From: a virus
Strand: one strand, 5' to 3'
IMG/VR virus record: IMGVR_UViG_3300029238_000243
DNA: 64,000 nucleotides
A program made the position numbers and the translations under genes. The number at the start of each line of letters is the position of its first letter. Position 1 is the stretch's first letter. Shown here piece by piece: positions 34,446-63,840 of the stretch. The notes beneath the pieces are model-generated. The model was not told the DNA's origin, did not search any database, and worked only from the letters and a program-made list of their open reading frames with translations.

Positions 34446-34857
34446 CTTATGCTCAGTTTTCAGTGTTTGAGAGAACTTGAAAGGATAACAGGCTTTGAAA
34501 CCCAGGATGGTGTCAAATCTTTCTTCGGGTACCCATAGGGGTTTTGACACCATGTTTTGAAAAGTCTCAGAACTATTGAATTTACTGGGTTTGCGGAGTT
34601 TGTGTTTTCAGACTCATTTGACGATTTTTTTGAAAATAACGTCATTTTTGGTATGGTTTGCATGCGTATGTTTATAGCTCTTATGATGTTGACAAGATGC
34701 TCGTATTCATATATCGAGCCATATATTTTGCATGCGATTTATCATCTCAAAAACTTTTTGGAAATATTTTTCGTTTTCTTAAAACCTGTTTGTGATTTGC
34801 TCTGTCTAATAAGTATACGGAACAAAAATTTCAAACACGAAAAAGGAGAAAACGAAA

Positions 34858-35229: not shown

Positions 35230-35332
35230 GAAATATTTTTTAATCTTTAAAACCTGTTAACGATTTTAATTGTCTAGTAAGTGTAACCTAAAAAAAATAA
35301 CATATAACAAAATGAAAAGGAGATTTAGAATT

Positions 35333-35734
35333 ATGGAAAATGTAACATGGAGTAAAAGAATGATAGCAGCAGCAGTAATGTCAATTGCGACACCAATCGT
35401 AACGGTTTTTATGACCGGTTATTATGCTGAAGAAGGCGGATATCTGATCGGAATTCCGATGGCTGTAGTGTCATACCTGTTGATCAATGGCTGGACTGCC
35501 CTGTTGTATGCGTTAAGTAGAGCTTTTCGTATTTTTACAAGTCATCTGACATTCCCGGGATTTAGCCTTGTGGGACTACTGATAACAATATTCTTCGTAC
35601 TTATGGGATTTGCTATTGGTATGATTTATTTTGTTTGTTGTCCGATCGTAATGCTTTTCATGCATTATTCTGAGTTGATGGGAGAAGCAGTAGAACCGGA
35701 AACGATAGATGAAGTTTCCGAAACAAATGAATAA
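35333..35734 (+). CDS. Membrane protein.
   Basis: It has the RBS aaaaggagatttagaattATG and TM helices. Confidence 0.55.
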   Translation: MENVTWSKRMIAAAVMSIATPIVTVFMTGYYAEEGGYLIGIPMAVVSYLLINGWTALLYALSRAFRIFTSHLTFPGFSLVGLLITIFFVLMGFAIGMIYFVCCPIVMLFMHYSELMGEAVEPETIDEVSETNE

Positions 35735-35775: not shown

Positions 35776-35839
35776 TTGATCTCTCGTCATCCATATTTAG
35801 TAAATATAAATATGTTTGAAAAAAGAGAGGAGAATTCAT

Positions 35840-44066: not shown

Positions 44067-44900
44067 TTATTTTGTGTACGTTAACAGAATGATTGATTCC
44101 TCGTCAATGGAATGGATTTCATCGCCTTTGTACATAATCTGGAAACGTTCTTTAGAAACATGATCAAGACCAAACCCGGAATCAACAATCTTAAAATCCG
44201 TCACATTTCCGGATCCGTCATAAATGCAATCATATACTGTGATACTATGATCAGCAGCCAAATTATTGTTTTTATAGACCCTGGTTGCTAAATCATCGGC
44301 TGTCATTGCAACGGAATCCACACTGACGATTGCAGCTGTTTTTGGATCCGAAATGAGATCTGCCAGCTCGTCTAAAGAAAGCATATTCTGGCTGTTGTAT
44401 ACCGTCACCTGGATAAAACCTTCTGGATCTAAAATATCAGCAATCTGAACGAGGTCGCTTGTCTGAGTTGCTCCCATAGATTCCGGAAACGTATCTTTTA
44501 CACATAAATCGTTATCCATAGCAATTTTTACAACGTCATTTTCCGTGTATAATGTAGAGTCCGTTATGATATTGATTGCATTCGCAAGGGAGGTCAATCC
44601 ACAGGTTCCGAGTGCGTAATAATCATTTTGACCCTGACGATAGAATGCATTTGGAAGGTAAGCGTCGTTTTCAATATACGGATGATTCAGATTATAATAC
44701 CAAACGTATGCTCTATTCTTGAGATTTGGGAACGCAATATTCACGATGACTAAAACAACTGCTAAAATTACGATTACAACAGCAAAATTCATCAACTCTT
44801 TTAACATTATTTGTTTTATTTTCGACCATTTCGTATTCTTTTCGTTCTGTATTCCATCCATTTGTAACCGGTTATTGTTCTCCATATTGGTTTTCTCCAT
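44067..44900 (-). CDS. Membrane-anchored protein, possibly a C39-like cysteine peptidase.
   Basis: It has a TM helix and a Q...GTCGLTSLANAIN segment. Confidence 0.35.
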   Translation of the reverse strand: MEKTNMENNNRLQMDGIQNEKNTKWSKIKQIMLKELMNFAVVIVILAVVLVIVNIAFPNLKNRAYVWYYNLNHPYIENDAYLPNAFYRQGQNDYYALGTCGLTSLANAINIITDSTLYTENDVVKIAMDNDLCVKDTFPESMGATQTSDLVQIADILDPEGFIQVTVYNSQNMLSLDELADLISDPKTAAIVSVDSVAMTADDLATRVYKNNNLAADHSITVYDCIYDGSGNVTDFKIVDSGFGLDHVSKERFQIMYKGDEIHSIDEESIILLTYTK

Positions 44901-44996
44901 TTATGTGTTCTTGATACTGACTCCTATTATAAAGGAAGAAAAATGAAAGGGCAATAAGAAAAGGAGTCCGAAATAAATCGAACTCCAAGTTTGATA

Positions 44997-45964
44997 TTAT
45001 TTTAAAGCTGTTTTCTCGAATGCATCTGCACTGACATTTACTCCGTTGGCGACCAATACTGCTTCTAGCTCTGATTTTGTATCGTAAACAGTTCCTCTGT
45101 ATTTGACGGAAGTTAACGACGTACAGGTGTAAAAGGCGTTAGAACCTATACTGGTTATATTGTTGGAGATTGAAACATATTTAAGATTTTCACAATAAGA
45201 AAAAGACATAGTTCCTATCTTCGTTACACTATTAGGAATAAAAACATTCTCAACAGTATAAACAGAATGACCATTACTACCATTGGCAAAAGCATAATTA
45301 CCAATCTGAGATACGTTATTTGGAATTACAATATTAATAACAGAAGGGTATTTTTTGTTAATTACATAATATGCTGAATTTATAGCATCGATAAAATAAT
45401 CAGGAGATCCGCCATATGGTACATAATTCTTTTCTGGATTGATTTCACTTTCTTCCCAAGAACATAACATTATCCCATTTGCATCATAAAGTCCAGCATC
45501 TATCTTTTTGTCTACATCAATCGAAAATCTAAATACTCCAGACCAATCACCGGATGTTAAGTCTTCAGCAGTGATCTTACCATCGGTCGAACATCCATCA
45601 TCTGCTGTAATCTCATTGCATAAAAACTCTGTCTTTACCTGATCAATAGTTCCTGTTACTGGTGTTTTGCCATTTGCGTCGTTTAAGGTTACTGTTGCAT
45701 CCGGAATAACGGTTACGCTTTCATTTCCGGCAATATCACCTTTGACTTTCACGTTGTAGGCAGCATTCTTGTTACTATTTAATACAATTGCTTTTGGAAT
45801 TGTAACCGAAAATGCGGATGCCTGCTCATAGTTTACGATAGCTGATTGTTTACCAGCTATATTTGTTTCCTGAGTACTGTCTGCAGCTAATGCCGGTACC
45901 GATTGTGTGGTTACCATATATAAAGCAGACAGAAATGACAGGAAACGAACTGTTTTCTGTTTCA
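44997..45964 (-). CDS. Secreted BspA-type leucine-rich-repeat protein (short paralog).
   Basis: It has a signal peptide, an N-terminal domain shared with the gene at 46166..49729, and LRR_5-type repeats (IPNSVTKIGTMSFSYC). Confidence 0.7.
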
Positions 45965-46165
45965 TAACTCTTTCCCTATCCCTTTCTTGGATGTGTGTTG
46001 TTAGGTTACATATACTAAATATGGGTGGCAGAGATACAAAGGAACGAAAATTTACGAAAATAAGTAAAAGTGATGAAAGGCTGGTAATCTCTTTATACTG
46101 GAAGGCAATAAGAAAAGGAGTCCGAAATAAATCGAACTCCTTTTTGAAATCTATTGTTTCTAACA

Positions 46166-49100
46166 TTATTCATGCGTCCAGTAACTACTGTGATATTTTG
46201 ATGTTAAATATGTAGCTGCTATAGATGTGTTTGATAAATCAGAACTACTAAGTGCTGTTGTCTTCGTACCTTCAGAATCACCTAAATACCAACCGGAAGT
46301 GTTTTCAAAAGATACATAAGTTAATTTATCACAATTACAAAAAGCTTGTTTACCAAGACTTGTGACATTTTTTGGTATAGTGACATTAGTTAAGCTATCG
46401 CAGTACATAAATGTACTATAACCGATACTTGTCACACCTTCAGGAATTATTACGTTATTTAAACTTACACAACTTTGGAACACACGTTCGTTTAATTTTG
46501 TCAAACCTGATGGAAGCTTTACTGTTTTTAAATTAGAACATGCTTGAAATGCGGCGGTTCCGATATTTACAACACTATTAGGAATCACTATACTTGTTAA
46601 TCCCTCACAACCATAAAATAATCCATCACCAATATTGGTGACACTATCAGGGATTGTAACTGACGTTAATCCGGAGCAATGCCAAAATGCATGTGTTCCA
46701 ATACTCGTTACACTATCTGGGATTGTAAGTGAGGTTAAACCTTTACAACCATAAAATGCTTCTTTTCCAATACTTGTCACATCGTCTGGGATTGTAAGTG
46801 AGGTTAAATCTTTACAACGATCAAATGCACAATCTCCAACACTTGTCACACTATCTGGAATCATTATATTTGTAAGACTAGAACAACCTTTGAATGCATA
46901 TTGTCCAACCTTTGTTAATGAATTTGGTAAATGTACAGTTTCTAACGCAGTGCAATCACAAAACGTAGCATCTCCAGTGCTTGTAACGCTGTCTGGGATT
47001 TCGATAGATCTTAAACTTGTACAACCTTGGAACACACCATAGTAATACCTTTCAGAAGTTGGATATTCTCTACCTAAAGTCTGCAAAGCACTATTTTCCT
47101 CAAAAACAACATTCGTTAATGAAATGCAATCTTTAAACACTCCATTGCTTATATTCATTACATTTCGAGGAATTGTAATTGAAGTTAAGCTAGAACAATT
47201 AGAAAATGTAAGCAGTTCGATACTTGTTACGCTGTCCGGTATTTTAATATTTGTTAGCGAAGAACAACCGTAAAATGCATATTGTCCAACCTTTTTTACG
47301 GAATTTGGTAAATGTACAGTTTCTAACACAGTACAATCTCTAAACGTAGCGTCTCCAGTGCTTGTAACGCTATCTGGGATTTCGATAGATTTCAAACTTG
47401 TACAACCTTGGAACACACCATAGTAATATCTATCAAGATCTGTATGTTCTCTACCTAAAGTCTGCAAAGCACTATTTTCTTCAAAAACAACATTCATTAA
47501 TGAAGTGCAATCTTTAAACACACCACTGTTTATATTCATTACATTTCGAGGAATTGTAAGATTTGTGAGACTAGAACAATTGTAAAACGCATTCCAATCA
47601 ATATTAGTTACACTTTCTGGAATCGTGATATTTGATAGACTAGAACATCCATTGAATGTATTATTTTCAATTGCGTTTAAACTATCTGACATGTTTACAG
47701 ATGCTAAGTGTGTACATTCATAAAACGTATAGGATCCCATATTTGTAACACTGTCTGGTATTGTAATACTTTGTAACGAGGTACATCCTTGAAAAACGCC
47801 ATACTTATTTCCACCGGCAACACCGAGAGTTAATAATTTATTATTATTGTTAAATGAAACATCATCTAAAGCGCTATCGTTACAAAACACACCAGAGCTC
47901 ATAGACTCCATTCCAGATCCAATACTTACTCTTTTAAGACTAGTACAATCCTTAAATGCATTATAATCAACGGTCTTTACATTATCCGGAATAGTAATAC
48001 TTGTAAGTGCTGTGTTTAAAAAGGCAGAATATCCTATACTGGTAACATTTTCTGGAATTGACACATTTTGAAGACTTGTGCATGAATCAAATAATCTTTC
48101 ACTGATATTTGTTATCTTACTTGGTATTGTTACACTGGTTAGATTATTACATTTGTAAAATGCACCTCTACCTATGGATGTAACACTATCTGGAATGTAA
48201 ATATTTGTTATTCCATTCATTTGGAACGCCCATGTCCCTATGTTAGTCACAGTGTCAGGAATAACTACACTTGTTAAATTTGCATAATGACCAAATGCAT
48301 TTGACCCGATATTAGTTATTCCAAAAGGGATAACAACTTTCGTTGCTGTGGGATAATTGTTTGTCAAAACGTAATAACCGGATGTTGGTGTCGTTGTATA
48401 AGGGTTTTCACCGGAAGCTGATCCATAATTCTGTGTAACATCAATACCTGATTCCTCCCAAGAACAAAGCATTACATCATTCGCGTTATATAATCCCGGC
48501 TCTTTTGCATTACATACCGTACACACATTATTTACATAATTATGATTAACAATCGCAATGTCTTGTATATCCTTCGTCTGAGCTACGAAAACTGTATTTT
48601 TAAATGTGGCTGTATATGTCGTTGTTCCTTTCGCTGTACATGTTGCAGCCTCTTTAACAGTACTAGAAATCGTTGCTTCTTCTGTTTCTACAGATGAAGG
48701 ATGATTCACACAAGTACGTTTCGCTGTACATGTCTGTCCGTCTTCAGACCAAACATAAGTTGGTTCTCCATAAGTATGTTCAAACAACTCAGAGTCAATC
48801 GTGACATCATTTTCAGTCAAAGCAGAACCAATATCTGTTTTATCATAACTATTCGCTTTGTATTGGATTGCTGATAAGTTAGAACATCCTTCGAATACAT
48901 TAGACTTTACTGTTTTAAGTGCAGATGGAAGTGACACGCTTGATAGTTTCGAACAGTTAGCAAAAGCTCCGGTTCCAATTTCGGTAACAGAGTCGGCGAT
49001 CGCAACACTCGTCATCTCATTGCAATCCCGGAATGCATAATCGCCAATACTGGTTACCGCATGCCTGGTGTTATCTTCGTCTGTTACATATTCCGGAATT

Positions 49101-49729
49101 ACAACGTCGCCTACGGTATCAATCTGATACGTATCAAGATTTGAATTTGTAAGCGATATTCCGTCACCGATCTGATTTGTATTGATTGCGAACGTGAAGT
49201 TACCAGACCAATCACCAGAAGTCAAATCATCTGCTGCTATATTACCATTTGTTTTAGTACCGTCAATCTGATTCACTCCTGTAGAAGAAAACTCAGTCTT
49301 TTCCTGGGCGATGTTTCCGGTAACAGGATCTTTTCCGTTTGCATCATTTAAGGTTACTGTCTGGTCAGGAACAACAGTGATAATATCGTTTCCAAGGATA
49401 TCGCCTTTAACCTTAACATTGTAGGTTGCTGTTTTGTTGCTGTCTAATACAATTGACTTTGGAATTGTAACAGTAAACGAAGACGCCTGGTCATATTTGA
49501 CGACTGCTGCTTTAGATCCGGAATCGTTTGTCTCCTGTTGTCCGTCGGCTGATGTCCCGTCTGTTTGAGTTTCGTCTGCTAATGTTTTGTCTGCCTGGTT
49601 TTCGTCCGCCAAGGTTTCGTTTACCACTGTTTTACCTGCCTGATTTTCGGCAGCCAGTGTTGGAATACTAGGCGTCATTGTAAGAACCGAAGCCAGAACA
49701 AGCAGACAGCTTATTGCTTTTCGTTTCAT
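46166..49729 (-). CDS. Secreted 1187-aa BspA-type leucine-rich-repeat surface protein.
   Basis: It has a signal peptide and more than 20 repeats of the form IPDSVTSIG..AF..C..LTS. Confidence 0.8.
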   Translation of the reverse strand: MKRKAISCLLVLASVLTMTPSIPTLAAENQAGKTVVNETLADENQADKTLADETQTDGTSADGQQETNDSGSKAAVVKYDQASSFTVTIPKSIVLDSNKTATYNVKVKGDILGNDIITVVPDQTVTLNDANGKDPVTGNIAQEKTEFSSTGVNQIDGTKTNGNIAADDLTSGDWSGNFTFAINTNQIGDGISLTNSNLDTYQIDTVGDVVIPEYVTDEDNTRHAVTSIGDYAFRDCNEMTSVAIADSVTEIGTGAFANCSKLSSVSLPSALKTVKSNVFEGCSNLSAIQYKANSYDKTDIGSALTENDVTIDSELFEHTYGEPTYVWSEDGQTCTAKRTCVNHPSSVETEEATISSTVKEAATCTAKGTTTYTATFKNTVFVAQTKDIQDIAIVNHNYVNNVCTVCNAKEPGLYNANDVMLCSWEESGIDVTQNYGSASGENPYTTTPTSGYYVLTNNYPTATKVVIPFGITNIGSNAFGHYANLTSVVIPDTVTNIGTWAFQMNGITNIYIPDSVTSIGRGAFYKCNNLTSVTIPSKITNISERLFDSCTSLQNVSIPENVTSIGYSAFLNTALTSITIPDNVKTVDYNAFKDCTSLKRVSIGSGMESMSSGVFCNDSALDDVSFNNNNKLLTLGVAGGNKYGVFQGCTSLQSITIPDSVTNMGSYTFYECTHLASVNMSDSLNAIENNTFNGCSSLSNITIPESVTNIDWNAFYNCSSLTNLTIPRNVMNINSGVFKDCTSLMNVVFEENSALQTLGREHTDLDRYYYGVFQGCTSLKSIEIPDSVTSTGDATFRDCTVLETVHLPNSVKKVGQYAFYGCSSLTNIKIPDSVTSIELLTFSNCSSLTSITIPRNVMNISNGVFKDCISLTNVVFEENSALQTLGREYPTSERYYYGVFQGCTSLRSIEIPDSVTSTGDATFCDCTALETVHLPNSLTKVGQYAFKGCSSLTNIMIPDSVTSVGDCAFDRCKDLTSLTIPDDVTSIGKEAFYGCKGLTSLTIPDSVTSIGTHAFWHCSGLTSVTIPDSVTNIGDGLFYGCEGLTSIVIPNSVVNIGTAAFQACSNLKTVKLPSGLTKLNERVFQSCVSLNNVIIPEGVTSIGYSTFMYCDSLTNVTIPKNVTSLGKQAFCNCDKLTYVSFENTSGWYLGDSEGTKTTALSSSDLSNTSIAATYLTSKYHSSYWTHE

Positions 49730-50040
49730 AATATTTCATTTCCTTTCTTTGTATTTGTTTGTGTTTTTCACATAATACTAAATATGGGTTACAAAGATAC
49801 AAAGGAAGCGATTTATAGGGAAACAAAGTATAGAAAACGAAAAAGAGCCTACCATATTGGTAAGCTCTCTTTCGTAACAAATAAACACACTTGGAGATTA
49901 TGGATTTCTCTCATTATCTCCATATACAAGGAAACAATCCTGCCAACGAATTTGGCATTTTTGAACCCGTCAACAATTAATTTGGAAACCGGTTTCGCTT
50001 CCGTAGAGTCTGTATACTCCTGTGTGCTCTTCAGCATTTC

Positions 50041-51975
50041 TTATGACTGATAGAGTTCTGTTTCGTAATACTCTCCTTGAAGCACACCATTATAGTACAA
50101 CTTCAAAAGTATTATATCATATGTTTCCCCATAAATGTCAAGTGTTTCTCCAGACGGTTCCAAAGTAAATGCATATCCGCTGTCTGTGAAATTCGAATAG
50201 GAACTGTCTGCTTTCTTCAGATAATAGATCTTGTCACCATAATTGAAGACTTCCAGAGAACCTATTGATCCGCCATTTATGTTTCCGCACCAGCCTTCTA
50301 CTCCGCCGTCTTCCGTAAACATGCTTAATGATATTGTCTGTCCATCATTGCTTGAGTAAGAACCCGGTGTATTCCAGAAATTGCCGGTTGGTGTATAGTT
50401 CGGAACCGGGATATTTCCGCTCTGATCAACAGTCTCCTCTTCTGCTTGTACTTCTGTTCCCTCCGGAGCCGTTTCTGTCGGTTCTTCAGTTGTTTCTTCC
50501 ACTACTTCTTCGGTTTCTGTTTCCGGAATTGATTCTGTTACAGTGATATGGGATGCATATATGGCATTCATCTCTGCTTCCCCATTTGTAACCCAATCAT
50601 TGTATGCGTCGTCAGCACCAGAGAAAATAATGTCATCTTCTGTAATGCAGTACCATTCATCAAAACTATAACCGTCAGAATTGATCATCTTGTTTATATC
50701 TTTAAATTGAGTATGTTCGTCTTCATCATAGACAAGCTCATAATCCGATTCCTCAGAATACATAAAAGTAGAATCAGCCAACACAACGTCTATATTCATA
50801 TCTGGATCTTCAATGTATTTATTATATTTTTCAGATTCAGGAACACGATTGAGCATGTAACCACCACCATCTGTCTCATAAGTAAAATATATACGTCCTT
50901 TATATTCTCCGAAATACCACTTTTTATCATTATCTTTTTTCATTTCTGAGAATCCTATATTATTTGATTCACACTGGAATAAAACTCCTCCATGTTCCAC
51001 ATCATCAATCTCATTTATATATAATTTAAGCGGATATTTATATTCACGAATACTAATATATTTTACACCGTATCTATGATCTACATTATATTTAGCCCAT
51101 TGAGGTAATTCCTCTTTCTGCTCCTGCATATGCACAATCGCTGCTGCTCCACCTCCGACAACAAGCGTTCCGGCGACAATGCCTGCGATCACCTTTGTTG
51201 CGATTCCCTTTCCGGCGCCTGCTGCTACTGTGGCTGCGGTTGTTCCGGCAACGGTACTTCCGGTTCCTGCTGCGGCTGTAACTGCTTTAGTTGCCGAAGA
51301 CACTGCAGCCGACATTGCCGGAATCTGTGTCGTCTGTGCCGCTTTAACATCCTCTTTAAGCAGCAACAGGAAGAATGGAATCGGAGCAAGACCATAAAGC
51401 TTGGTCCCCTTCTTTTCAAGATCTAATACTTTGTCCTTGATCTTTTGTCTGCCATAATTCAGGCGGCTCTTAACGGTATTCTCTGATACTTCAAGCACGG
51501 ACGCCATTTCTTTTACAGACATCTGCTCCATATAGAACATTGTGACACAGATGCGCTGTTCATCTGTCAAAGTATCAATGATCTCTTTCATCAGTCTCGT
51601 TGTCTCATTCTGGTCCATAACGATTTCCGGCTGAACAGACACACGGTCATCCACAAAGGTATCACTGATATCCTGTCCGTCTTCGGTTTCTGTTTCTGAA
51701 AACAAGGTTACCTTTCTCCGTTTTAACTCGTTTTTGGAAAGGTTCGACACAATCGTTCCGATCCAGGACTGAAACTTCTCCGGATCTTCCAAGGTATCCA
51801 GAGACTTAAAAGCCTTCACATAGGCATCCTGAACGATATCCTGAGCTGTGTGCTCGCTGTTTAAAAACTTCCTCGCCAGGTAAAAACATTTCGTATACGT
51901 TTTCTCATACAGGTACGTATACGCTTCCTGATCTCCTTTCATTGCTTTTTGTACTGCTTCAGTATAGCTATTCAT
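50041..51975 (-). CDS. ECF-type sigma factor fused to a TM segment and a roughly 380-aa extracytoplasmic C-terminal domain.
   Basis: It has ECF region 2 (DIVQDAYVKAFKSLDTL..FQSWIGTIVSN) and region 4 (LTDEQRICVTMFYMEQMSVKEMASVLEVSENTVKSRL), followed by a hydrophobic Ala/Gly-rich stretch and a long C-terminal domain. Confidence 0.75.
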   Translation of the reverse strand: MNSYTEAVQKAMKGDQEAYTYLYEKTYTKCFYLARKFLNSEHTAQDIVQDAYVKAFKSLDTLEDPEKFQSWIGTIVSNLSKNELKRRKVTLFSETETEDGQDISDTFVDDRVSVQPEIVMDQNETTRLMKEIIDTLTDEQRICVTMFYMEQMSVKEMASVLEVSENTVKSRLNYGRQKIKDKVLDLEKKGTKLYGLAPIPFFLLLLKEDVKAAQTTQIPAMSAAVSSATKAVTAAAGTGSTVAGTTAATVAAGAGKGIATKVIAGIVAGTLVVGGGAAAIVHMQEQKEELPQWAKYNVDHRYGVKYISIREYKYPLKLYINEIDDVEHGGVLFQCESNNIGFSEMKKDNDKKWYFGEYKGRIYFTYETDGGGYMLNRVPESEKYNKYIEDPDMNIDVVLADSTFMYSEESDYELVYDEDEHTQFKDINKMINSDGYSFDEWYCITEDDIIFSGADDAYNDWVTNGEAEMNAIYASHITVTESIPETETEEVVEETTEEPTETAPEGTEVQAEEETVDQSGNIPVPNYTPTGNFWNTPGSYSSNDGQTISLSMFTEDGGVEGWCGNINGGSIGSLEVFNYGDKIYYLKKADSSYSNFTDSGYAFTLEPSGETLDIYGETYDIILLKLYYNGVLQGEYYETELYQS

Positions 51976-52127
51976 TTTTCATCCTCCGTAATATGTACTC
52001 TAATATCTTTCTCACTTTCGTTTTGTTTACTGTATATCCGTTCTGGTCTTGTTGTGCCAGTTCCTGAAACCATAACATTTCCCGGCATGGTTCCTCATGA
52101 ATGATTTCCTCTCTGCGTTCATCCATG
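51975..52127 (-). CDS. Small ORF of about 50 aa immediately upstream of, and overlapping, the ECF-fusion start.
   Basis: It has the RBS aaaggagggattgcATG, and its stop overlaps the ATG at 51975. Confidence 0.3.
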
Positions 52128-52368
52128 CAATCCCTCCTTTCTGTCCGTCTACTTAAAAGACAGTAGAAAACAGGAATCGGTTTTAGGTTTTCTTCAACAA
52201 TTCAACATTTTATAACTGTTCGCTGTTTTGCACAAGCCTGTTTTCGTATATTCATGCATTTTTGTATATATTGCCGGATGATTCGTTTCCGGCATTCGTG
52301 TGCACTGAAACACATATTTAAAGTATTGAACAAAAATATATGCACACAAAAGGAGGAAACAAAAGAAA

Positions 52369-52988
52369 TGAATCAGAGAGGTTTCAGTTTAAAGAAATGT
52401 ATGGTAGGACTTGTATTGGCAATCGCAATGGTTATCCAAACACCAGTATCAGGATTTGCAGCAGATGTTTGTACGCAGAGTAACGTTGTCCAGGCAGAAG
52501 GAAAAGTTTCGAAGACCAGAGTCAACAATGTAAATGCGTACTATTTAGGAATTCCGGAGAATGTAAGACAATATCTGGAGGACCGAGGTTGGACATTCAT
52601 CTGCTCAGATCAGAGTTTTGGTAAACGATATGGGTATACAGGATCGATTCTCGCTTTAACACTTTATAACGACAAGGTTATCTATATTGATAATCGAAAG
52701 AAAGCAGAGCCCTCAATCGTACACGAAGTCGGGCATGCTATTGATTATTCCTACGGGTTTACCTCAAATTCGCAGGCGTTTAATGATATATTCGCTGTAG
52801 AACATAATAATGTAAGCTCATTTTGGAAAACGCATCATAATAACACGGACACAGCTATCGAATATTTTGCTGAAGCGTTCCAGATCTATGTGCAGCAGCC
52901 AGAAAATTTACAGACTTACTGTCCGCAGACCTACGAGTATATTCAAAATATTGTTTCCGGACTTAGACCTGAAACAACCGAAAATTAA
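52369..52988 (+). CDS. Secreted zinc metallopeptidase of the anthrax-lethal-factor / PPEP-like (M34-like) type.
   Basis: It has a signal peptide, an HEVGHAID (HExxH) motif and a downstream EYFAEAF motif (third-ligand Glu). Confidence 0.6.
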
Positions 52989-53066: not shown

Positions 53067-54857
53067 TTAATCGCCGATGTCGCCAGGATCATCTAAGTCA
53101 TCGAACTCAGGATCATCCAATGCATTTTGGTCATCCAATGTCATTGTGTCTGACATATTAAGTGCGCCTATATTGATATCTCCGGTAATCGGGGCTCCAT
53201 ATTCGAGATGCTGTCTGATTTCCTCCATATCTGAAGCGCTAATACTCGGATCCGCATATTTGGATACATCGATATTATGATCCATACCATACCGAATCTG
53301 TTTCATCTGTTCATTAGTATATTCCGGATCCATATATACAGAGACATCAAGTCCGGATTCCATTCCAATTCGGATCTCATTCATTTGAAATCCGTTAAAT
53401 ACTGGATCTGCATATGTGTAAACAGATGCAAAATCTAAACCATGTCGCAATCCTTCTGTAATCTGGCGCATCTGATAAGAATCAAACTCCGGTTTCGCAT
53501 AGAACGATACATCAATACCAGATTCCAAGGCTTTCTTGAGTTCTAACATCTGGTAAGAATTAAAAGCTGGATCCGCATATTTTGAAACATCAATGCCGGA
53601 TTCCATGCCACGCCGAATTGCATCCATCTGGTATTTGTCATATTTCGGATCCGCATAAATGGAAACGTTTAATCCTTTTTCCAGACCATACCGGATCTGT
53701 CTCATTTGTTTCCAGTCATATCTCGGATCCGTATATTTTAATACATCTACATTGCTTTCAAACCCGAGCATCAACTGATGTTTCTGGTTCGTATCCATCT
53801 GACTTAACAGTGATTTCATTTCTTTTTCTGGATCTGATTCGATTCCTTTAATCATATTAACGTAATTTGTAACATTGATTCCTGCACTCAGTCCAATAAA
53901 AATATTATGCATCTGCTGTGGTGTGAGTGCCGGATCCGCATAAATAGATACATCCAAACCACTTCGCAAGCCATCTTTGATTTCCTCCATCTGTTCTACA
54001 GAAAATGCCGGATCTGCAAACTTGGTAACATCAGCAACAGGCATGCCATCCATCAGTCCAAAACATATCGTATCCATCTGCTTTTGCGTGAACTGCGGAT
54101 TTGCATAAATAGAAGCATCGACGCCCTGCTCAAGACCAAACATAATGGAATCCATTTGCTGTGGCGTAAACTTTGGATCTGCATACGGGGTAACATCAAT
54201 TCCCTTTTCAAGTCCATAGATGATGCTTGACATCTGTTCTGTTGAAAATGCCGGGTCTGCGTATTTTGTAACATCAATTCCGGAAATCAAACCGCTTCTG
54301 ATATAATGCATCTGTGTGGTACTAAGCTCTGGATTACAAAGCGCTGATATGTCGTAGCCTTCTTTCATCACCATATGCATGATTGCCATTTGATCTGAAT
54401 TATACTTTGGGTCTGCATATTTCGATACATCAAATCCATTCTCCAAACCATTCAAGATATAATACATCTGAACAATATCGTATTCTGGGTTTGCATAAGC
54501 AGATACGTCTAGTCCTTCTTTCAGACCTGTCATGATAATACGAAGCTGACCTTCCGTAAATTTCGGATCCATATATTTGGACACATCAAGATTATTTTCC
54601 AATCCTTCTCGGATGAAATACATCTTATCTGCATTGCATGTCGGATCCGCATATTGTGTCACATCAATACCGGATCGTAATCCAAGTTTGATCTCAGTCA
54701 TCTGATCTTCTGTGTACTGTGGGTCTGCATAAATAGATACATCCAGCCCGTCTTCCAAACCTTCACGAATTTCTATTGTTTGTGCAACAGTATACAAAGA
54801 CCAATCAATTTCATTCTCAAGTTGACTTACGTCTACAGGTTTCTTTTTGTCTGCCAT
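53067..54857 (-). CDS. Tandem-repeat protein with about 16 repeats of about 34 aa (consensus ..GL..G.DVS.YADP.F...QM..I...).
   Basis: The periodicity is visible in the translation, for example DVSKYADPKFTEGQLRIIMTGLKEGL. Confidence 0.7.
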   Translation of the reverse strand: MADKKKPVDVSQLENEIDWSLYTVAQTIEIREGLEDGLDVSIYADPQYTEDQMTEIKLGLRSGIDVTQYADPTCNADKMYFIREGLENNLDVSKYMDPKFTEGQLRIIMTGLKEGLDVSAYANPEYDIVQMYYILNGLENGFDVSKYADPKYNSDQMAIMHMVMKEGYDISALCNPELSTTQMHYIRSGLISGIDVTKYADPAFSTEQMSSIIYGLEKGIDVTPYADPKFTPQQMDSIMFGLEQGVDASIYANPQFTQKQMDTICFGLMDGMPVADVTKFADPAFSVEQMEEIKDGLRSGLDVSIYADPALTPQQMHNIFIGLSAGINVTNYVNMIKGIESDPEKEMKSLLSQMDTNQKHQLMLGFESNVDVLKYTDPRYDWKQMRQIRYGLEKGLNVSIYADPKYDKYQMDAIRRGMESGIDVSKYADPAFNSYQMLELKKALESGIDVSFYAKPEFDSYQMRQITEGLRHGLDFASVYTYADPVFNGFQMNEIRIGMESGLDVSVYMDPEYTNEQMKQIRYGMDHNIDVSKYADPSISASDMEEIRQHLEYGAPITGDINIGALNMSDTMTLDDQNALDDPEFDDLDDPGDIGD

Positions 54858-55047: not shown

Positions 55048-57651
55048 TTAGTCTACGATATCGCCAATATCATCCGGTTCTACATTCTCTTCCGGATAGA
55101 AACCGGTATCATTAGCATCCTGCCGGAACTCAGGAACATTCATGTCACCAGCGATAGCATCCATTCTAGGGCCAGAAATACTCATATCTCCAGCGATATG
55201 TTCGATATCCGGTTCCTTTTTACCTGCTGCCATAAGTTCGGATGCGATGTAATCGAAGTCATTTGTGGAAACGACCTTGGCATCCGGTTGTAACGGCAGC
55301 TCTTTGTTCTCTGTATACAGTTCCGGTTTCATGGTAAAGATCATATCAGCTTCTGTAGGTTCAAAAACTTCTGTTGCTTTACCAGCGCATACATAAGCTG
55401 CAACCAAGTCACCAAGTGATGGTGTATAGTTGTTTGTATACCGGTGAATCAAAGCTTCCGTTGCGTTCATATATGCTACGTTTGCAATATTCTGGAGTCC
55501 TTTTTCGTGTTCCAATGGTTTGTCTACCCAGATAAATTCGTCCTTTTCGACATCATAGATAAGAGGAACCGTTGCTGTTGATTCGGAGTTAAGGTCAATG
55601 AGTGCTTCTACGGTAGATGGTTCAAAAATCTGACCATTAAACTCATTCCATTTGTCATGCCATACATTTGGATCTAAAGAACCTTGTCTCTGCATGAATC
55701 CGAATTTTACGACATCAAGTTTATTGTATGGAACATTGCTGTAACTATTCACTGACAATACCATATACTTGATACCCGCTTCCCTACATTTCTGCTTATC
55801 GATATCCATATATTCGGCTGAGAATACAGGTGCACTTGTGATATCACCACCATGAATAGCGACAAGATCTCTGGATTTATCATCTTTCTGCACATATGCT
55901 TTCTGATCATAATAAGCGCATTCTGTAATAAGGTTTAAATCTTTATCATAGAAAGCAGCAGAGGTGTCAATATCAATACGCTCCTGATTTTGATTCTGCC
56001 AGCCAATAAACTGACGGATGATATTGCAATTTTTGTCGCCTTTCATAATGGATCCGGAAGTTAAGGAACTACCTTTTGAGGAGCTTCTCTCTCCGTTTTC
56101 TGGAAGCAGCATGTCCACAACATTCGGATCTATATAAACGCGACCTAAATTGTCATGAGTCTGAAGCTGTTTTGAAACAGAATCAATGATTCCTTTTTTG
56201 ATCATCTGCGCCTGGTCTTCTGCAAAATGATAAGTACTTTCCTCTTTTACGAAACGACCAAGTTTTGCGACATGGATGGCACGATACGGAAGTCCTTTTT
56301 CATACAAGTCAACCAGGTTATACAGCTTTAACTGCTCACGGATTGGTGTTTCATATGCGTTTGCGGCATAAATATCACAAATAGCCTGTAACTGATCATG
56401 TTTGATCCCGGCAACCGCAAACTGAATGAAGTTACGATTGAATACGCCAGGAAAATCGTGTGCCGCTTTTTCGGTCAAAGCAAGCGCATCATCGGCACCA
56501 GAACGAACGGCGTCTAAAGCTTTCTGTACGACAGCATAAGGTGATACGATTGGCACTCCAATCTCGTTTACCTTCTGTCCGGAATACAGATTATCGTACG
56601 CTTTCTGTAAACGAGAATAAACGGTATCTCTTGGTACTGATTTTGAAAAAGTCTTAAACAAATCAGGACGAAGCCAGACTGCAGTAAACAGATCGTGCGT
56701 CTTATCCAAAAGGCTATTCATCATTCTTGCTTCCGAACGTGATAATTTAAAGTAAACCTTACCGGCAAGACCTGGTTTATTCTCAATTGTTTCCTGATTA
56801 CGTTTTGTACGCCATTCCAGATGTCCATTATCACGAGTTTCTCCCTTTTTCGGATTCCAAACAAATACTTTCGCTTTGCTTTTTACCGTATGAGTCTTTC
56901 CGTTTGATAATTCCGCAGCCAGACGAAGGACATCAGTTGCTTCGGTAACCAATTTATGCAGCATATCATCTTTTGCACGAGATGTAAGGTTACTGTTTTT
57001 TGTGATGTCGAAAGCAATGGCTGCCTTATTTTCTCGGTTAGGAATAGCCTGCTCATAAACCCATGGAAACCATTCGTTTGTGTCATGCATATAGTTAAGT
57101 AACGTCTCCATTTTAGGTTTTGATAACGAAGCTGTCGAAAACATACGGTCATGCATAGTCTCATGGATCAGGTAGTAATTATCAGTTTCGATCAGTTTTA
57201 AGTCACGATGAAAGTCTTCAAGTAATGGATTACGCTCTGATGCTTCAAATTCTGGACGTAAATCCGGGTTGAGATATTCTGCCAGCTGATTGATATACTG
57301 CTCTACTTCGCTCATTTCCATTACCTGTTCAGGGAAATCAGGATAAAATACAGTAGCATTCTGGAACGCTTCCGCCTGACTGGATTCGCGCACAGAATTC
57401 ATAAGCTTCTGACATTCTTTTACGATCTCAGACTCAGGAAGCGAAACCATGGTATCAAGAAGAGAAAGAGACATGGTACGTCCATAAGCTTCAAGGTTGC
57501 GGTTTGTAGACAAAACAAGCTGCATAGCGCGATCTGATGGATTTTCATTAATCTCAACAGAAGGCATTACCCATGTACCTGTTTCCTGATAGATGACGTC
57601 ACGATATTTAGTCACAAGGTCTTTTTCGTTTAACATAATTATTTCCTCCAT
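55048..57651 (-). CDS. Large 867-aa hypothetical protein with a C-terminal TerD-like domain.
   Basis: It has a long ORF and a TerD-like segment (GWQNQ..RIDIDTSAAFYDKDLNL...AIHGGDITS...MDID). Confidence 0.6.
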   Translation of the reverse strand: MEEIIMLNEKDLVTKYRDVIYQETGTWVMPSVEINENPSDRAMQLVLSTNRNLEAYGRTMSLSLLDTMVSLPESEIVKECQKLMNSVRESSQAEAFQNATVFYPDFPEQVMEMSEVEQYINQLAEYLNPDLRPEFEASERNPLLEDFHRDLKLIETDNYYLIHETMHDRMFSTASLSKPKMETLLNYMHDTNEWFPWVYEQAIPNRENKAAIAFDITKNSNLTSRAKDDMLHKLVTEATDVLRLAAELSNGKTHTVKSKAKVFVWNPKKGETRDNGHLEWRTKRNQETIENKPGLAGKVYFKLSRSEARMMNSLLDKTHDLFTAVWLRPDLFKTFSKSVPRDTVYSRLQKAYDNLYSGQKVNEIGVPIVSPYAVVQKALDAVRSGADDALALTEKAAHDFPGVFNRNFIQFAVAGIKHDQLQAICDIYAANAYETPIREQLKLYNLVDLYEKGLPYRAIHVAKLGRFVKEESTYHFAEDQAQMIKKGIIDSVSKQLQTHDNLGRVYIDPNVVDMLLPENGERSSSKGSSLTSGSIMKGDKNCNIIRQFIGWQNQNQERIDIDTSAAFYDKDLNLITECAYYDQKAYVQKDDKSRDLVAIHGGDITSAPVFSAEYMDIDKQKCREAGIKYMVLSVNSYSNVPYNKLDVVKFGFMQRQGSLDPNVWHDKWNEFNGQIFEPSTVEALIDLNSESTATVPLIYDVEKDEFIWVDKPLEHEKGLQNIANVAYMNATEALIHRYTNNYTPSLGDLVAAYVCAGKATEVFEPTEADMIFTMKPELYTENKELPLQPDAKVVSTNDFDYIASELMAAGKKEPDIEHIAGDMSISGPRMDAIAGDMNVPEFRQDANDTGFYPEENVEPDDIGDIVD

Positions 57652-63766: not shown

Positions 63767-63803
63767 GATCGTTTTCCTCCATTTTAGTTTCTTAGCTATA
63801 TAC

Positions 63804-63840
63804 ATCATAAGGCTCACTTTTCGGAAACCTCGTCACATTT
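63804..63840 (-). promoter_or_regulatory. Class-A promoter-like box about 45 bp upstream of tnpB, inside the IS.
   Basis: Its reverse complement is AAATGTGACGAGGTTTCCGAAAAGTGAGCCTTATGAT. Confidence 0.45.

What the first reader, a model, noticed from the sequence alone, without database searches (positions are those of the whole stretch)
50041..52988. A membrane-tethered ECF sigma fusion divergent from a secreted PPEP/lethal-factor-like metalloprotease, next to LRR surface proteins
The 644-aa protein has canonical ECF regions 2 and 4 in its first roughly 190 aa. These are followed by an Ala/Gly-rich hydrophobic segment and a roughly 380-aa C-terminal domain. It is thus a sigma and anti-sigma-like sensor in one chain, and presumably needs proteolysis or a signal to act. 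A small ORF of about 50 aa overlaps its start. Divergently transcribed from a class-B box is a signal-peptide HExxH protease (HEVGHAID...EYFAEAF) of the anthrax-LF/PPEP type. In Clostridia that family cleaves surface adhesins. Immediately upstream (44997-49729) are two BspA-type LRR surface proteins. Together they suggest a host-envelope interaction or remodelling module with its own sigma.
Basis: partly seen in the sequence, partly recalled or inferred. Interest (0 to 1): 0.6.

Follow-up and report, generated by a model that had tools for sequence, protein, structure and literature searches.

The report
Membrane-tethered sigma factor with small partner
The 644-residue protein is a real sigma factor anchored in the membrane by its own tail; it belongs to a large family in Clostridia that I did not find described in the papers I searched, it has a small partner protein and its own promoter, and nothing links it functionally to the neighbouring protease and LRR genes.

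Summary
There is a 644-aa ECF sigma factor (sigma2/sigma4, residues 1-185), one N-in/C-out transmembrane helix (262-281) and a 363-aa outside domain. A 52-aa ORF overlaps its start. A divergent secreted HExxH...E protease has the PPEP/lethal-factor fold. Two BspA-type LRR genes lie downstream.

The proposed "module with its own sigma" does not hold. The sigma belongs to a Clostridia-wide family (76 loci). Its members share an invariant LEKKGTKLY..P.PF motif after sigma4, an Ala/Gly-rich linker, one TM helix and a variable ectodomain. No anti-sigma domain is detectable.

The conserved partner is the small upstream two-helix protein, which a profile finds in 40 of 85 genes. The protease is not conserved beside the sigma.

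An ECF-type promoter, TAAAACC-N16-TGTCTnnTAAGT, precedes the small-ORF/sigma operon. It occurs only twice more in the window, ahead of two small multi-pass membrane proteins at 34.8-35.7 kb. The LRR genes carry a different box that recurs across the element, and the protease gene has a variant of it.

The most likely mechanism, which is inferred, is a signal at the orphan ectodomain followed by proteolytic release of the sigma. This is a new variant of the single-chain sigma class known from IutY and ECF52. Interest is moderate.

The parts
50041..51975 (-). Gene for the 644-aa membrane-tethered ECF sigma factor (whole gene, stop included)
   Evidence: ORF; Pfam and NCBIfam sigma domains; about 100 full-length homologues at 63-96% identity
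51421..51975 (-). ECF sigma core, residues 1-185 (sigma2 22-88, sigma4 129-179)
   Evidence: Pfam Sigma70_r2, Sigma70_r4_2 and Sigma70_ECF; SigW in the PDB at 6.5e-21
51358..51420 (-). Invariant motif next to sigma4, residues 186-206: LEKKGTKLYGLAPIPFFLLLL
   Evidence: Invariant in alignment A1. LEKKGTKLY is at least 90% identical at every column in 84 family sequences
51193..51357 (-). Low-complexity Ala/Thr/Gly/Ser linker, residues 207-261
   Evidence: Read from the sequence. Across the family the linker has a median of 65 aa and is 30% Ala, 16% Gly, 10% Thr; no Pfam domain
51133..51192 (-). Single transmembrane helix, residues 262-281 (VIAGIVAGTLVVGGGAAAIV), N-in/C-out
   Evidence: Kyte-Doolittle 2.13, the only segment above 1.6. 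In the family the N-terminal flank has net charge +2.4 and the C-terminal flank -0.96; the N side is the more positive in 69 of 75 members
50044..51132 (-). Extracytoplasmic region, residues 282-644: a mixed alpha/beta domain (about 289-478), an acidic disordered linker (about 482-531) and an 8-stranded beta-barrel (about 533-644)
51968..52126 (-). 52-aa two-helix partner protein, translationally coupled to the sigma gene (8-nt overlap)
   Evidence: Strong RBS. Homologous small ORFs lie upstream of sigma genes across Clostridia. No Pfam or PDB relative
52151..52185 (-). ECF-type promoter of the small-ORF/sigma operon: TAAAACC-N16-TGTCTTTTAAGT
   Evidence: Conserved at the same position in L009, L008 and L010. 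AAACC-N16-(C/T)GTC lies upstream of 27 of 85 family genes where about 2 are expected. There are 3 exact sites in the window and 0.29 expected even when 3 mismatches are allowed
34780..34814 (+). Second copy of the ECF-type promoter (TAAAACC-N16-TGTCTAATAAGT)
   Evidence: conserved in related elements L093-L097
34858..35229 (+). Predicted target gene: 123-aa multi-pass membrane protein
   Evidence: ORF with a GGAGA RBS 51 nt after the promoter; no Pfam; called as a gene in public assemblies
35248..35282 (+). Third copy of the ECF-type promoter (TAAAACC-N16-TGTCTAGTAAGT)
35333..35734 (+). Predicted target gene: 133-aa multi-pass membrane protein
52368..52988 (+). Secreted 206-aa zinc metalloprotease of the ATLF/M34 fold (HEVGH plus the Glu of EYFAEAF). 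A neighbouring cargo gene, not shown to belong to the sigma system
   Evidence: Pfam ATLF. PDB sequence hits to lethal factor and PPEP-1. AlphaFold2 pLDDT 85-98 over the mature chain. Foldseek top hits are PPEP-1, -2, -3 and lethal factor, with target-normalised TM-scores of 0.60-0.69 for the PPEPs
52273..52293 (.). Perfect palindrome GCCGGAtgattcgttTCCGGC in the divergent intergenic region; possible operator, function unknown
   Evidence: The only perfect copy in the window; the other 3 matches carry 1-2 mismatches
49837..49875 (-). Intrinsic-terminator-like hairpin (18 pairs plus a T-run) between the sigma gene and the first LRR gene
46166..49729 (-). 1187-aa secreted BspA-type LRR protein. 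A neighbouring cargo gene with its own upstream box at 49775-49803
   Evidence: Pfam LRR_5 2.6e-201; box
44997..45965 (-). Second BspA-type LRR protein (about 322 aa from the internal start) with its own copy of the box at 46012-46040
   Evidence: Pfam LRR_5 9e-18; relatives called at 322 aa; box

Best explanation
The 644-aa protein is a single-pass, N-in/C-out membrane-tethered ECF sigma factor. It belongs to a large family found across Clostridia. The family architecture is:
- an optional N-terminal zinc ribbon;
- sigma2 and sigma4;
- the invariant motif LEKKGTKLY-h-x-P-h-P-F-hhhh (h = hydrophobic);
- a flexible Ala/Gly/Thr-rich linker;
- one TM helix;
- a variable ectodomain.

The sigma gene is co-transcribed and translationally coupled with a 52-aa two-helix partner protein. 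Both are driven by an ECF-type promoter, TAAAACC-N16-TGTCTnnTAAGT, which makes the operon a candidate for autoregulation. The same promoter precedes two small multi-pass membrane proteins 17 kb away. Within this window those two genes and the operon itself are the predicted regulon.

Inferred mechanism: tethering keeps the sigma inactive. A signal at the orphan ectodomain (an alpha/beta domain, an acidic linker and a small beta-barrel) triggers proteolysis in or near the membrane. This is regulated intramembrane proteolysis, as in IutY. The sigma core is released and then transcribes its regulon. The small protein forms a 1:1 complex with the sigma, either as a cytoplasmic inhibitor or as a co-factor.

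The PPEP/lethal-factor-fold protease and the two LRR genes are separate secreted-protein cargo genes of the same mobile element. They carry a different upstream box.

Shown here: the architecture, the topology signal, the family, the partner gene, the promoter sites and the lack of conserved linkage to the protease. Inferred: release by proteolysis and the role of the small protein.
For: - Sigma domains.
- One TM helix per protein in nearly all complete family members, with a positive-inside flank (+2.4 against -0.96; 69 of 75).
- Family of 76 genomic loci in Lachnospiraceae, Oscillospiraceae, Ruminococcus, Enterocloster, Faecalibacterium and others, with tandem paralogues.
- Invariant motif and linker statistics.
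- Small partner ORF with a good RBS that abuts or overlaps the sigma start. A profile finds it upstream of 40 of 85 distinct sigma genes.
- Promoter conserved upstream of the operon in relatives at 46-60% identity.
- The promoter core is enriched 27 of 85 against about 2 expected.
- In other family loci the same motif precedes secreted proteins, lipoproteins and small 3-5 TM proteins, almost always on the sigma strand.
- Three exact 17-base matches in the window, with no further match at up to 3 mismatches (0.29 expected).
- The sites are conserved in related elements.
- A strong terminator lies between the sigma gene and the LRR gene.
- The LRR genes carry the other, element-wide box.
- Precedent for proteolytic activation of a sigma fused to a TM tail: IutY, as reviewed in PMC8999054.
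Against: - There is no experimental evidence for cleavage, and no candidate site-1 or site-2 protease was identified.
- There is no recognisable anti-sigma domain, so tethering alone would have to inactivate the sigma. The long flexible linker could instead let it work while tethered.
- The window's own small ORF scores only E=0.05 against the profile built from other loci. Its homology rests on the intermediate L009.
- The seed ORFs for that profile were picked with a motif pattern and were also among the sequences scored, so the 40-of-85 count is partly circular.
- Only 27 of 85 family genes show the strict promoter core. The long pattern was refined on the window's own three sites.
- Targets were sought only in 64 kb of an element whose contigs reach 390 kb, and not in the host chromosome.
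- The literature search covered open-access text only, so a prior description of the family could have been missed.
Confidence: 0.6

Rival explanations
1. The sigma, the divergent protease and the LRR proteins form one envelope-interaction module. Either the sigma drives the protease and LRR genes, or the secreted protease is the site-1 protease that cuts the sigma's ectodomain and so activates it.
For: The gene order 596-aa protein / protease / small ORF / sigma / LRR is kept in all close relatives. The ectodomain has a long exposed acidic linker (low pLDDT) that a protease could cut. All the products are secreted or membrane proteins.
Against: The conserved order is seen only in one element lineage (sigma 78-96% identical). 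Sigma relatives at 46-50% identity have a divergent HTH gene and unrelated neighbours. Protease relatives at 38-58% identity lie in other contexts with no such sigma. No ECF promoter precedes the protease or LRR genes even at 3 mismatches. A strong terminator separates the sigma gene from the LRR gene. Both LRR genes carry the element-wide box, and the protease gene has a variant of it. Pro-Pro motifs in the window's reading frames fall outside the sigma ectodomain and the LRR coding regions.
Confidence: 0.1
2. The sigma works while still tethered and is never cleaved. The 42-202-residue flexible linker acts as a leash that lets the sigma core join RNA polymerase at the membrane. Activity is gated by the small partner protein, acting as a soluble anti-sigma factor, or by a conformational signal passed through the invariant motif.
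For: No anti-sigma domain sits in the chain. Every family member keeps a long low-complexity linker. A small soluble partner is encoded upstream and translationally coupled, as the anti-sigma genes are in the sigF and sigB operons (my own knowledge). The predicted targets are membrane proteins, which could be made at the membrane.
Against: The only tested single-chain example, IutY, needs proteolysis (PMC8999054). I know of no precedent for a sigma factor that works while membrane-anchored. The Gly/Ala-rich TM helix resembles substrates of intramembrane proteases, but that is inference only.
Confidence: 0.2
3. The fusion is an annotation or assembly artefact, or a decaying gene: a sigma gene accidentally joined to a downstream membrane-protein gene, with no function as a single chain.
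For: None found. The C-terminal domain is an orphan.
Against: The same uninterrupted reading frame occurs in hundreds of independent assemblies and in 76 genomic loci with the same architecture. The junction motif is the most conserved part of the protein.
Confidence: 0.02

Closest known systems
IutY of Pseudomonas putida (ECF243), a hybrid of a sigma factor and an anti-sigma factor
   Same: One polypeptide with an N-terminal ECF sigma domain, one TM helix and an extracytoplasmic C-terminal sensor part. It is the only case shown experimentally to be activated by proteolytic release, through Prc and RseP (PMC8999054; PMC5411451).
   Different: IutY carries a recognisable FecR-type anti-sigma part and works with a TonB-dependent outer-membrane receptor in a Gram-negative cell. 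The protein here has no detectable anti-sigma domain, has an invariant LEKKGTKLY..P.PF motif instead, has a small upstream partner protein, and comes from Gram-positive Clostridia.
ECF48, ECF52 and ECF53 sigma factors of Actinobacteria (for example SCO4117 of Streptomyces coelicolor)
   Same: ECF sigma factors with long C-terminal extensions that contain one or two TM helices and an outside domain. They are predicted to be activated by proteolysis (PMC8999054; PMC5826349).
   Different: Those extensions begin with a zinc-finger (ZAS-type) anti-sigma domain, and in ECF52 they end in a carbohydrate-binding domain. Here no ZAS domain lies between sigma4 and the TM helix, the ectodomain is an orphan, and the phylum differs.
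SigW-type ECF sigma factors of Bacillus with the membrane anti-sigma factor RsiW
   Same: This is the closest sequence relative of the sigma core (NCBIfam SigW 1.6e-28; PDB 5wuq 6.5e-21). The promoter has the same layout, an AAC-containing -35 element, a 16-nt spacer and a (C/T)GT -10 element; the SigW consensus TGAAAC-N16-CGTA is from my own knowledge. The regulon consists of envelope proteins.
   Different: In the SigW system the sigma and the membrane anti-sigma factor are separate proteins, and the anti-sigma factor is the one cleaved. Here the sigma itself carries the TM helix, and all scores fall below the SigW equivalog cut-offs.
Pro-Pro endopeptidases PPEP-1, -2 and -3, and the catalytic domain of anthrax lethal factor (MEROPS M34, Pfam ATLF)
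   Same: The neighbouring protease has the same fold over its whole mature length (Foldseek target-normalised TM-score 0.60-0.69 for the PPEPs). It has HExxH plus the downstream zinc-binding Glu. It is small and secreted like the PPEPs.
   Different: Identity to the PPEPs is 14-23%, whereas PPEP-3 is 39% and 34% identical to PPEP-1 and PPEP-2 (PMC12828418). There is a single Glu rather than the Glu-Glu pair. Position -7 from the zinc Glu is Asn, not the oxyanion Tyr. No adjacent Pro-Pro substrate gene was found.

Membership tests
ECF (group 4) sigma factor | Only regions sigma2 and sigma4, both matching the family profiles | tested here: met
   Pfam Sigma70_r2, Sigma70_r4_2 and Sigma70_ECF over residues 2-182. 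TIGR02937 scores 98 bits against a cut-off of 42.9. The PDB hits are all ECF sigma factors.
ECF (group 4) sigma factor | A cognate promoter with an AAC-type -35 element and a CGT/TGT-type -10 element, also ahead of its own gene | tested here: met
   TAAAACC-N16-TGTCT lies upstream of the operon and is conserved in relatives. This is computational only. No transcription start site was mapped.
Single-chain sigma/anti-sigma hybrids (IutY, ECF48/52/53) | A C-terminal extension with TM helix or helices and an extracytoplasmic domain | tested here: met
   One TM helix at 262-281 and 363 residues outside it. The flank charges indicate N-in/C-out.
Single-chain sigma/anti-sigma hybrids (IutY, ECF48/52/53) | A recognisable anti-sigma domain (ZAS/zf-HC2, FecR, RskA or similar) between sigma4 and the TM helix | tested here: not met
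   No Pfam hit for residues 180-300 even at E up to 10. The full-length scan found only sigma domains and a sub-threshold Mga helix-turn-helix match. The region is a 21-residue motif followed by a low-complexity linker.
Single-chain sigma/anti-sigma hybrids (IutY, ECF48/52/53) | Activation by proteolytic release of the sigma core | not testable with these tools
   This needs protein-level experiments. Here it is inferred only by analogy (PMC8999054).
Peptidase family M34 / Pfam ATLF | HExxH on the active-site helix plus a downstream zinc-binding Glu | tested here: met
   HEVGH aligns to the HExxH of lethal factor and PPEP-1. The first Glu of EYFAEAF aligns to the first Glu of EFFAEAF in lethal factor, which is zinc ligand E735 by my own knowledge of lethal factor numbering. 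Both are conserved in all full-length homologues.
Peptidase family M34 / Pfam ATLF | The overall two-subdomain fold | tested here: met
   AlphaFold2 pLDDT is 85-98 for residues 41-200. The Foldseek top 50 are all PPEP-1, -2, -3 or lethal factor, probability 1.00, with target-normalised TM-scores of 0.60-0.69 for the PPEPs.
Peptidase family M34 / Pfam ATLF | An oxyanion-hole tyrosine 7 residues before the zinc Glu (Tyr178 in PPEP-1; Tyr728 in lethal factor) | tested here: inconclusive
   In the sequence alignment this position is Asn or Asp, within a conserved T-H-x-N-N-T stretch. The loop alignment is uncertain, and I could not inspect the model coordinates.
Pro-Pro endopeptidases (PPEP) | An S-loop carrying Trp103/Tyr113 and Lys101/Arg111 that closes over the Pro-Pro substrate (PMC12828418) | not tested
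   The N-terminal half does not align to the PPEPs by sequence, and no residue-level structural alignment was available.
Pro-Pro endopeptidases (PPEP) | Sequence similarity at the level seen among PPEPs (PPEP-3 is 39% and 34% identical to PPEP-1 and PPEP-2), and the Glu-Glu pair | tested here: not met
   Identity in the structural alignments is 14-23%. There is a single Glu (I-E-Y-F) where PPEP-1 has E184-E185.
Pro-Pro endopeptidases (PPEP) | A secreted or surface substrate with a Pro-Pro cleavage motif (P-P-x-P) encoded next to the protease gene; the adjacency of PPEP-1 and PPEP-2 substrates is from my own knowledge | tested here: not met
   No Pro-Pro motif falls in the coding regions of the LRR proteins, in the sigma ectodomain or in the 596-aa neighbour. 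The one hit inside the 44997-46166 ORF lies upstream of the probable real start.
BspA-type LRR surface proteins | LRR_5 repeats and a signal peptide | tested here: met
   Pfam LRR_5 2.6e-201 and 9e-18. N-terminal signal-peptide-like sequences are visible in the translations.
BspA-type LRR surface proteins | Attachment to the cell surface (LPXTG, a TM anchor or a cell-wall-binding domain) | tested here: not met
   The C-termini seen carry no LPXTG motif and no hydrophobic anchor, and Pfam found no wall-binding domain. The proteins are secreted. 'Surface' remains unverified.

The most novel reading that the evidence does not exclude
Clostridia have a large class of one-component transmembrane sigma factors that I did not find described in the papers I searched. 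In this class the sigma itself is the membrane sensor. It has no anti-sigma domain. It carries an invariant LEKKGTKLY..P.PF element that engages some common host factor, such as RNA polymerase, the membrane or a processing protease. It also has a dedicated 40-55-residue two-helix partner protein that controls it. A highly prevalent large mobile element of human-gut Lachnospiraceae has captured one such sigma. That copy has an orphan ectodomain and switches on two of the element's own small membrane proteins in response to an outside signal.
Probability: 0.4. Interest if true: 0.65.

Novelty: new variant of a known kind. Interest (0 to 1): 0.5.

Why it matters
ECF sigma factors are among the main bacterial signalling systems. 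Nearly all known ones are held by a separate anti-sigma protein. Only one single-chain membrane-tethered example, IutY, has been studied experimentally, and the other predicted groups all contain a recognisable anti-sigma domain.

Here a whole family of gut Clostridia shows a simpler layout: sigma, invariant motif, linker, TM helix and variable sensor. It comes with a conserved small partner and a clear promoter motif. Many genomes carry several paralogues.

That gives three directly testable questions:
- How is a sigma silenced without an anti-sigma domain?
- What does the invariant motif bind?
- What do the many different ectodomains sense in the gut?

For this window the practical result is a specific predicted regulon of three promoters. 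It also corrects the tempting but unsupported idea that the sigma controls the neighbouring protease and LRR genes.

Tried and rejected
- Near-identical DNA in the phage and plasmid collections: no match.
- IMG/VR scans: none for the protease and only one locus for the sigma family. The element cannot be called a phage. No phage structural genes appeared in the PHROG scans, and ParA/ParB are present.
- Homologue search with the ectodomain alone: only the same lineage. The exhaustive HMMER search gave 4 hits in 1.84 billion proteins.
- Small partner protein against Pfam and the PDB as a profile: only chance-level hits.
- PADLOC defence models: nothing for the sigma, partner, protease, neighbours or targets.
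- The short promoter core AAACC-N15-17-TGTC alone is not significant in the window (3 found, 1.8 expected). Only the full pattern and the cross-locus conservation carry weight.
- The palindrome at 52273-52293 as a repeated operator: it is the only perfect copy.
- The hydrophobic LYGLAPIPFFLLLL stretch as a first TM helix, which would put the C-terminus inside the cell: rejected. It is 14 residues long with two prolines, and its Kyte-Doolittle score is at most 1.07.
- Pro-Pro motifs as PPEP substrates: none in the relevant secreted proteins.
- Literature searches for membrane-bound, membrane-anchored or transmembrane sigma factors, or for this family in Lachnospiraceae: nothing relevant. The supplements of the ECF classification paper were not available, so I could not check whether the family has an ECF group number.

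Full report
**Observation**

ORF 50041-51975(-) encodes 644 residues. Pfam finds Sigma70_r2 (22-88), Sigma70_r4_2 (129-179) and the whole-length Sigma70_ECF model (2-182). NCBIfam's ECF superfamily model scores 98 bits against a cut-off of 42.9. The best specific models are SigW-like but fall below their cut-offs. The closest solved structure is B. subtilis SigW at 6.5e-21.

The protein has one hydrophobic segment above the usual Kyte-Doolittle threshold. It is V262-V281, with a score of 2.13, flanked by K256/K261 on one side and by H282...E285, E288, E289 on the other.

The 52-aa ORF at 51968-52126(-) has an AAGGAGGG ribosome-binding site, and its stop overlaps the sigma ATG by 8 nt. The divergent HExxH ORF most likely starts at 52368 (RBS AAAGGAGGAA), giving 206 aa as in all relatives, not at 52254. 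The two downstream genes are BspA-type LRR proteins. The second probably starts at 45965, giving about 322 aa.

**The sigma fusion is a member of a large Clostridial family**

A homologue search returned about 100 full-length relatives at 63-96% identity. It then returned proteins that share only the first 280 or so residues and carry other C-termini, some with SH3 or LRR_5 domains.

In an alignment down to 35% overall identity, the most conserved stretch is not inside sigma2 or sigma4. It is ...VSENTVKSRLNYGRQKIKDKVLDLEKKGTKLYGLAPIPFFLL, which runs from the sigma4 recognition helix into a 21-residue segment just after it.

Scanning one genome per species with these peptides gave 76 loci. They come from Lachnospiraceae, Oscillospiraceae, Ruminococcus, Enterocloster, Faecalibacterium, Pseudobutyrivibrio, Roseburia, Dorea and others. 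Many are chromosomal, several genomes have more than one locus, and some carry tandem arrays (three in a row in L073).

Across 85 distinct genes the layout is constant:
- an optional N-terminal CxxC...CxxC zinc ribbon, present in 21 of 85;
- the ECF core;
- LEKKGTKLY, at least 90% identical at every position, followed by h-x-P-h-P-F and a hydrophobic run;
- a linker of 42-202 residues (median 65), made of 30% Ala, 16% Gly, 10% Thr and 8% Ser;
- one TM helix;
- a variable C-terminal region of 124-765 residues.

The 15 residues before the TM helix carry a mean net charge of +2.4, and the 15 after it carry -0.96. The N side is the more positive in 69 of 75 proteins. This indicates that the sigma lies in the cytoplasm and the C-terminus lies outside.

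The hydrophobic part of the invariant motif is too short and too proline-rich to be a TM helix. It has 14 residues, two prolines, and a Kyte-Doolittle score of at most 1.07.

**No anti-sigma domain, and an orphan ectodomain**

Residues 180-300 match no Pfam family even at E=10. The full-length scan found only sigma domains and a sub-threshold Mga helix-turn-helix match. Thus the feature that defines the known sigma/anti-sigma hybrids is not met: IutY has a FecR-type part, and ECF48/52/53 have a ZAS-type part (PMC8999054).

An exhaustive HMMER search of 1.84 billion representative proteins found four hits. Two are the same lineage, one is a 35% relative that is also a sigma fusion, and one is a weak match. 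Equally, nothing indicates what the domain senses.

**The conserved partner is the small upstream protein, not the protease**

In sigma relatives at 46-50% identity (L007/L008 and L009) the protease is absent. A small HTH gene sits divergently instead, and the downstream genes are unrelated. A 47-50-aa ORF is nevertheless still called immediately upstream of the sigma gene, overlapping its start in L009. The more distant relative in Pseudobutyrivibrio (L010) also lacks the protease, and a 40-aa ORF can be read in the same position there.

A systematic scan of the 300 nt upstream of all 85 genes found such ORFs widely. They have good ribosome-binding sites, and their stops lie within a few bases of the sigma start. 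They align as two amphipathic helices: h-x-x-L-h...(L/I)(D/S/P)xExAxxILxxIL.

A profile built from 32 of these ORFs detects an upstream ORF at E<0.01 for 40 of 85 genes. The seed ORFs were picked with a motif pattern and were also among the sequences scored, so this count is partly circular. Further divergent candidates are visible by eye.

The window's own ORF scores only E=0.05 against that profile. It is, however, 43% identical to the L009 protein, with WFQ.L..Q and RK.L..ILRR.KN shared. The family has no Pfam or PDB relative.

Translational coupling suggests a stoichiometric complex with the sigma. Whether the small protein inhibits the sigma or assists it cannot be decided here.

The invariant motif is identical among paralogues whose small partners differ. 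I therefore infer that the motif addresses a common host factor rather than the partner.

**The promoter and the predicted regulon**

The regions just upstream of the small ORF were aligned for the window, L009, L008 and L010. The alignment shows TAAAACC, exactly 16 nt, then TGTC(T/A)..TA. The same signal precedes the gene downstream of the sigma in L008.

This is the standard ECF layout. For comparison, the SigW consensus is TGAAAC-N16-CGTA (my own knowledge).

AAACC-N16-(C/T)GTC occurs within 350 nt upstream of 27 of 85 family genes. About 2 would be expected from its density over all loci. Elsewhere in those loci it lies, almost always on the sigma strand, ahead of genes for signal-peptide proteins, lipoproteins and small proteins with 3-5 TM helices.

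In the window the full pattern TAAAACC-N16-TGTCTnnTAAGT has exactly three matches:
- 52151-52185(-), 32 nt ahead of the small ORF;
- 34780-34814(+), ahead of a 123-aa multi-pass membrane protein;
- 35248-35282(+), ahead of a 133-aa multi-pass membrane protein.

Allowing three mismatches adds no further match, and 0.29 matches are expected by chance. The sites are conserved in related elements. The short core alone is not significant in the window. The weight therefore rests on the long pattern and on the cross-locus conservation.

The box between the sigma and protease genes points toward the sigma operon, not toward the protease.

**The protease and LRR genes have a different upstream box**

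Both LRR genes are preceded by TTTGTATCTnTGnnnCCCATATTTAGTAT. Its core, CCATATTTAGTAT, is over-represented in the window: 17 matches at up to 2 mismatches, where 2.6 are expected. It lies ahead of many unrelated genes, including the element's RpoD-like sigma gene.

The protease gene has a variant, CACATATTTAAAGTAT, at about 52311-52326. An 18-pair terminator hairpin lies between the sigma gene and the first LRR gene. Each LRR gene is followed by an identical 37-nt hairpin and T-run (family D19).

By these signals the LRR and protease genes are independent units of the element's general programme.

**The protease**

Sequence search hits lethal factor and PPEP-1 at about 1e-5 over the C-terminal 80 residues. 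HEVGH aligns to HExxH, and the Glu of EYFAEAF aligns to the third zinc ligand.

The AlphaFold2 model has pLDDT 85-98 for residues 41-200. It matches PPEP-1, -2, -3 and the lethal factor catalytic domain over the whole mature chain, with target-normalised TM-scores of 0.60-0.69 for the PPEPs at 14-23% identity.

It is an M34/ATLF-fold secreted zinc protease. I do not file it as a Pro-Pro endopeptidase, for four reasons:
- PPEP-3 is 39% and 34% identical to PPEP-1 and PPEP-2, well above the 14-23% seen here.
- The PPEPs share an S-loop aromatic residue, a Glu-Glu pair and an oxyanion tyrosine (PMC12828418). Here there is a single Glu.
- The residue 7 positions before the zinc Glu is Asn, within a conserved T-H-x-N-N-T stretch.
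- The neighbouring secreted proteins contain no Pro-Pro motif.

Its relatives at 38-58% identity sit in other mobile-element contexts without a sigma fusion. Those contexts include methyltransferase arrays, an actin-like partition gene and integrases.

**Context**

The window carries ParA/ParB, a RecJ-like nuclease, helicases, an RpoD-like sigma, a Bro-N protein, integrases and transposases. No phage structural gene was found. It has no near match in the phage or plasmid collections.

The element is very common in gut metagenomes. The 123-aa target protein occurs with an identical sequence in 334 blocks of the collection, on contigs up to 390 kb.

**Mechanism**

Shown here:
- a cytoplasmic ECF core tethered by one TM helix to an outside domain;
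- a coupled small partner;
- an ECF-type promoter ahead of its own operon and of two membrane-protein genes.

Inferred:
- the tether keeps the sigma from productive use;
- a signal at the ectodomain leads to cleavage near or within the Gly/Ala-rich TM helix, releasing the core, as for IutY;
- the small protein modulates this step.

The main rival is that the sigma works on its flexible leash without cleavage and is gated by the small protein (20%).

**Novelty and score**

Single-chain membrane-tethered ECF sigma factors are a known kind. This Clostridial family differs in three ways. It lacks an anti-sigma domain, it has an invariant motif next to sigma4, and it has a dedicated small partner.

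I found no description of it in the searchable literature. I could not check the ECF group tables, because the supplements were not held.

I rate it a new variant of a known kind, with interest 0.5.

Noticed in passing
window 7520, 18168, 19445, 19497, 28139, 35791, 42092, 42176, 43974, 46012, 49775, 58347 (each a 13-nt box): A promoter-like box recurs across the element: (C/A)CATATTTAG(T/G)A(T/A), in several cases about 11-12 nt after a TTTG(C) element. There are 17 matches where 2.6 are expected. It lies ahead of many unrelated genes, including the RpoD-like sigma gene, both LRR genes, the Bro-N gene and the OGFr_N-like gene. It is probably the element's main promoter class.
   Followed up: partly
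window 7582-8610 (+): The element encodes its own RpoD-like (group 1/3) sigma factor. Its best NCBIfam match is a partial one to MzaA, the sigma associated with the MZA anti-phage system. It has the CCATATTTAGGAT box upstream.
   Followed up: no
window 53067-54857 (-): A 596-aa protein made almost entirely of about 22 tandem 26-residue (78-nt) repeats of the form DVSxYADPxFxxxQMxxIxxGLexGl. It has no signal peptide and no informative family hit. It lies between the protease gene and the 867-aa gene.
   Followed up: no
window 55048-57651 (-): An 867-aa protein with a partial match (3e-49, below cut-off) to the MXAN_6230/SCO0854 RING-domain family and to phrog_33734. An 840-aa protein sits directly beside the 58%-identical protease relative in L089 and L090. 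I did not compare the two large proteins, so whether this adjacency is conserved is unknown.
   Followed up: no
window 44950-44986 and 46104-46140: An identical 37-nt hairpin with a T-run follows each of the two LRR genes. Together with the shared upstream box and the shared N-terminal domain, this shows that the two LRR genes are duplicated cassettes.
   Followed up: partly
window 44067-44900 (-): A 277-aa protein with one N-terminal TM helix and an outside domain. It has no Pfam, PHROG, NCBIfam, PADLOC or PDB match. It is conserved downstream of the LRR genes in related elements.
   Followed up: partly
window 52273-52293: A perfect 6+9+6 palindrome, GCCGGAtgattcgttTCCGGC, lies between the ECF promoter and the protease gene. 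It is the only perfect copy in the window. It is partly degraded in the relative L004 (ATCGGA...TCCGTC).
   Followed up: partly
window 35816-36574 (+): A protein similar to the conserved region of the opioid growth factor receptor (OGFr_N, 1.6e-14) is encoded directly after the two predicted sigma targets. It has the element-wide box upstream, not the ECF box.
   Followed up: no
window 58975-60099 (+) and 62279-63817 (-): An IS91-family transposase (Y2_Tnp plus its zinc-binding domain) and a transposase matching phrog_506. Close relatives of the element carry a Cas12f1-like TnpB insertion between the 862-aa and 596-aa genes that this window lacks.
   Followed up: no
loci L073, L082, L057, L049, L084 and L021, L030, L031 among others: In Enterocloster-like genomes the sigma-TM genes form tandem arrays of two or three paralogues. 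21 of 85 family members carry an extra N-terminal CxxC...CxxC zinc ribbon ahead of sigma2.
   Followed up: partly
loci L093-L097 and window 34858-35229: The 123-aa target protein is found with an identical sequence in 334 blocks of the public collection, on contigs of up to 390 kb. The element is therefore very widespread in human-gut metagenomes. Its nature is unresolved: ParA/ParB are present and no phage structural genes were seen.
   Followed up: partly
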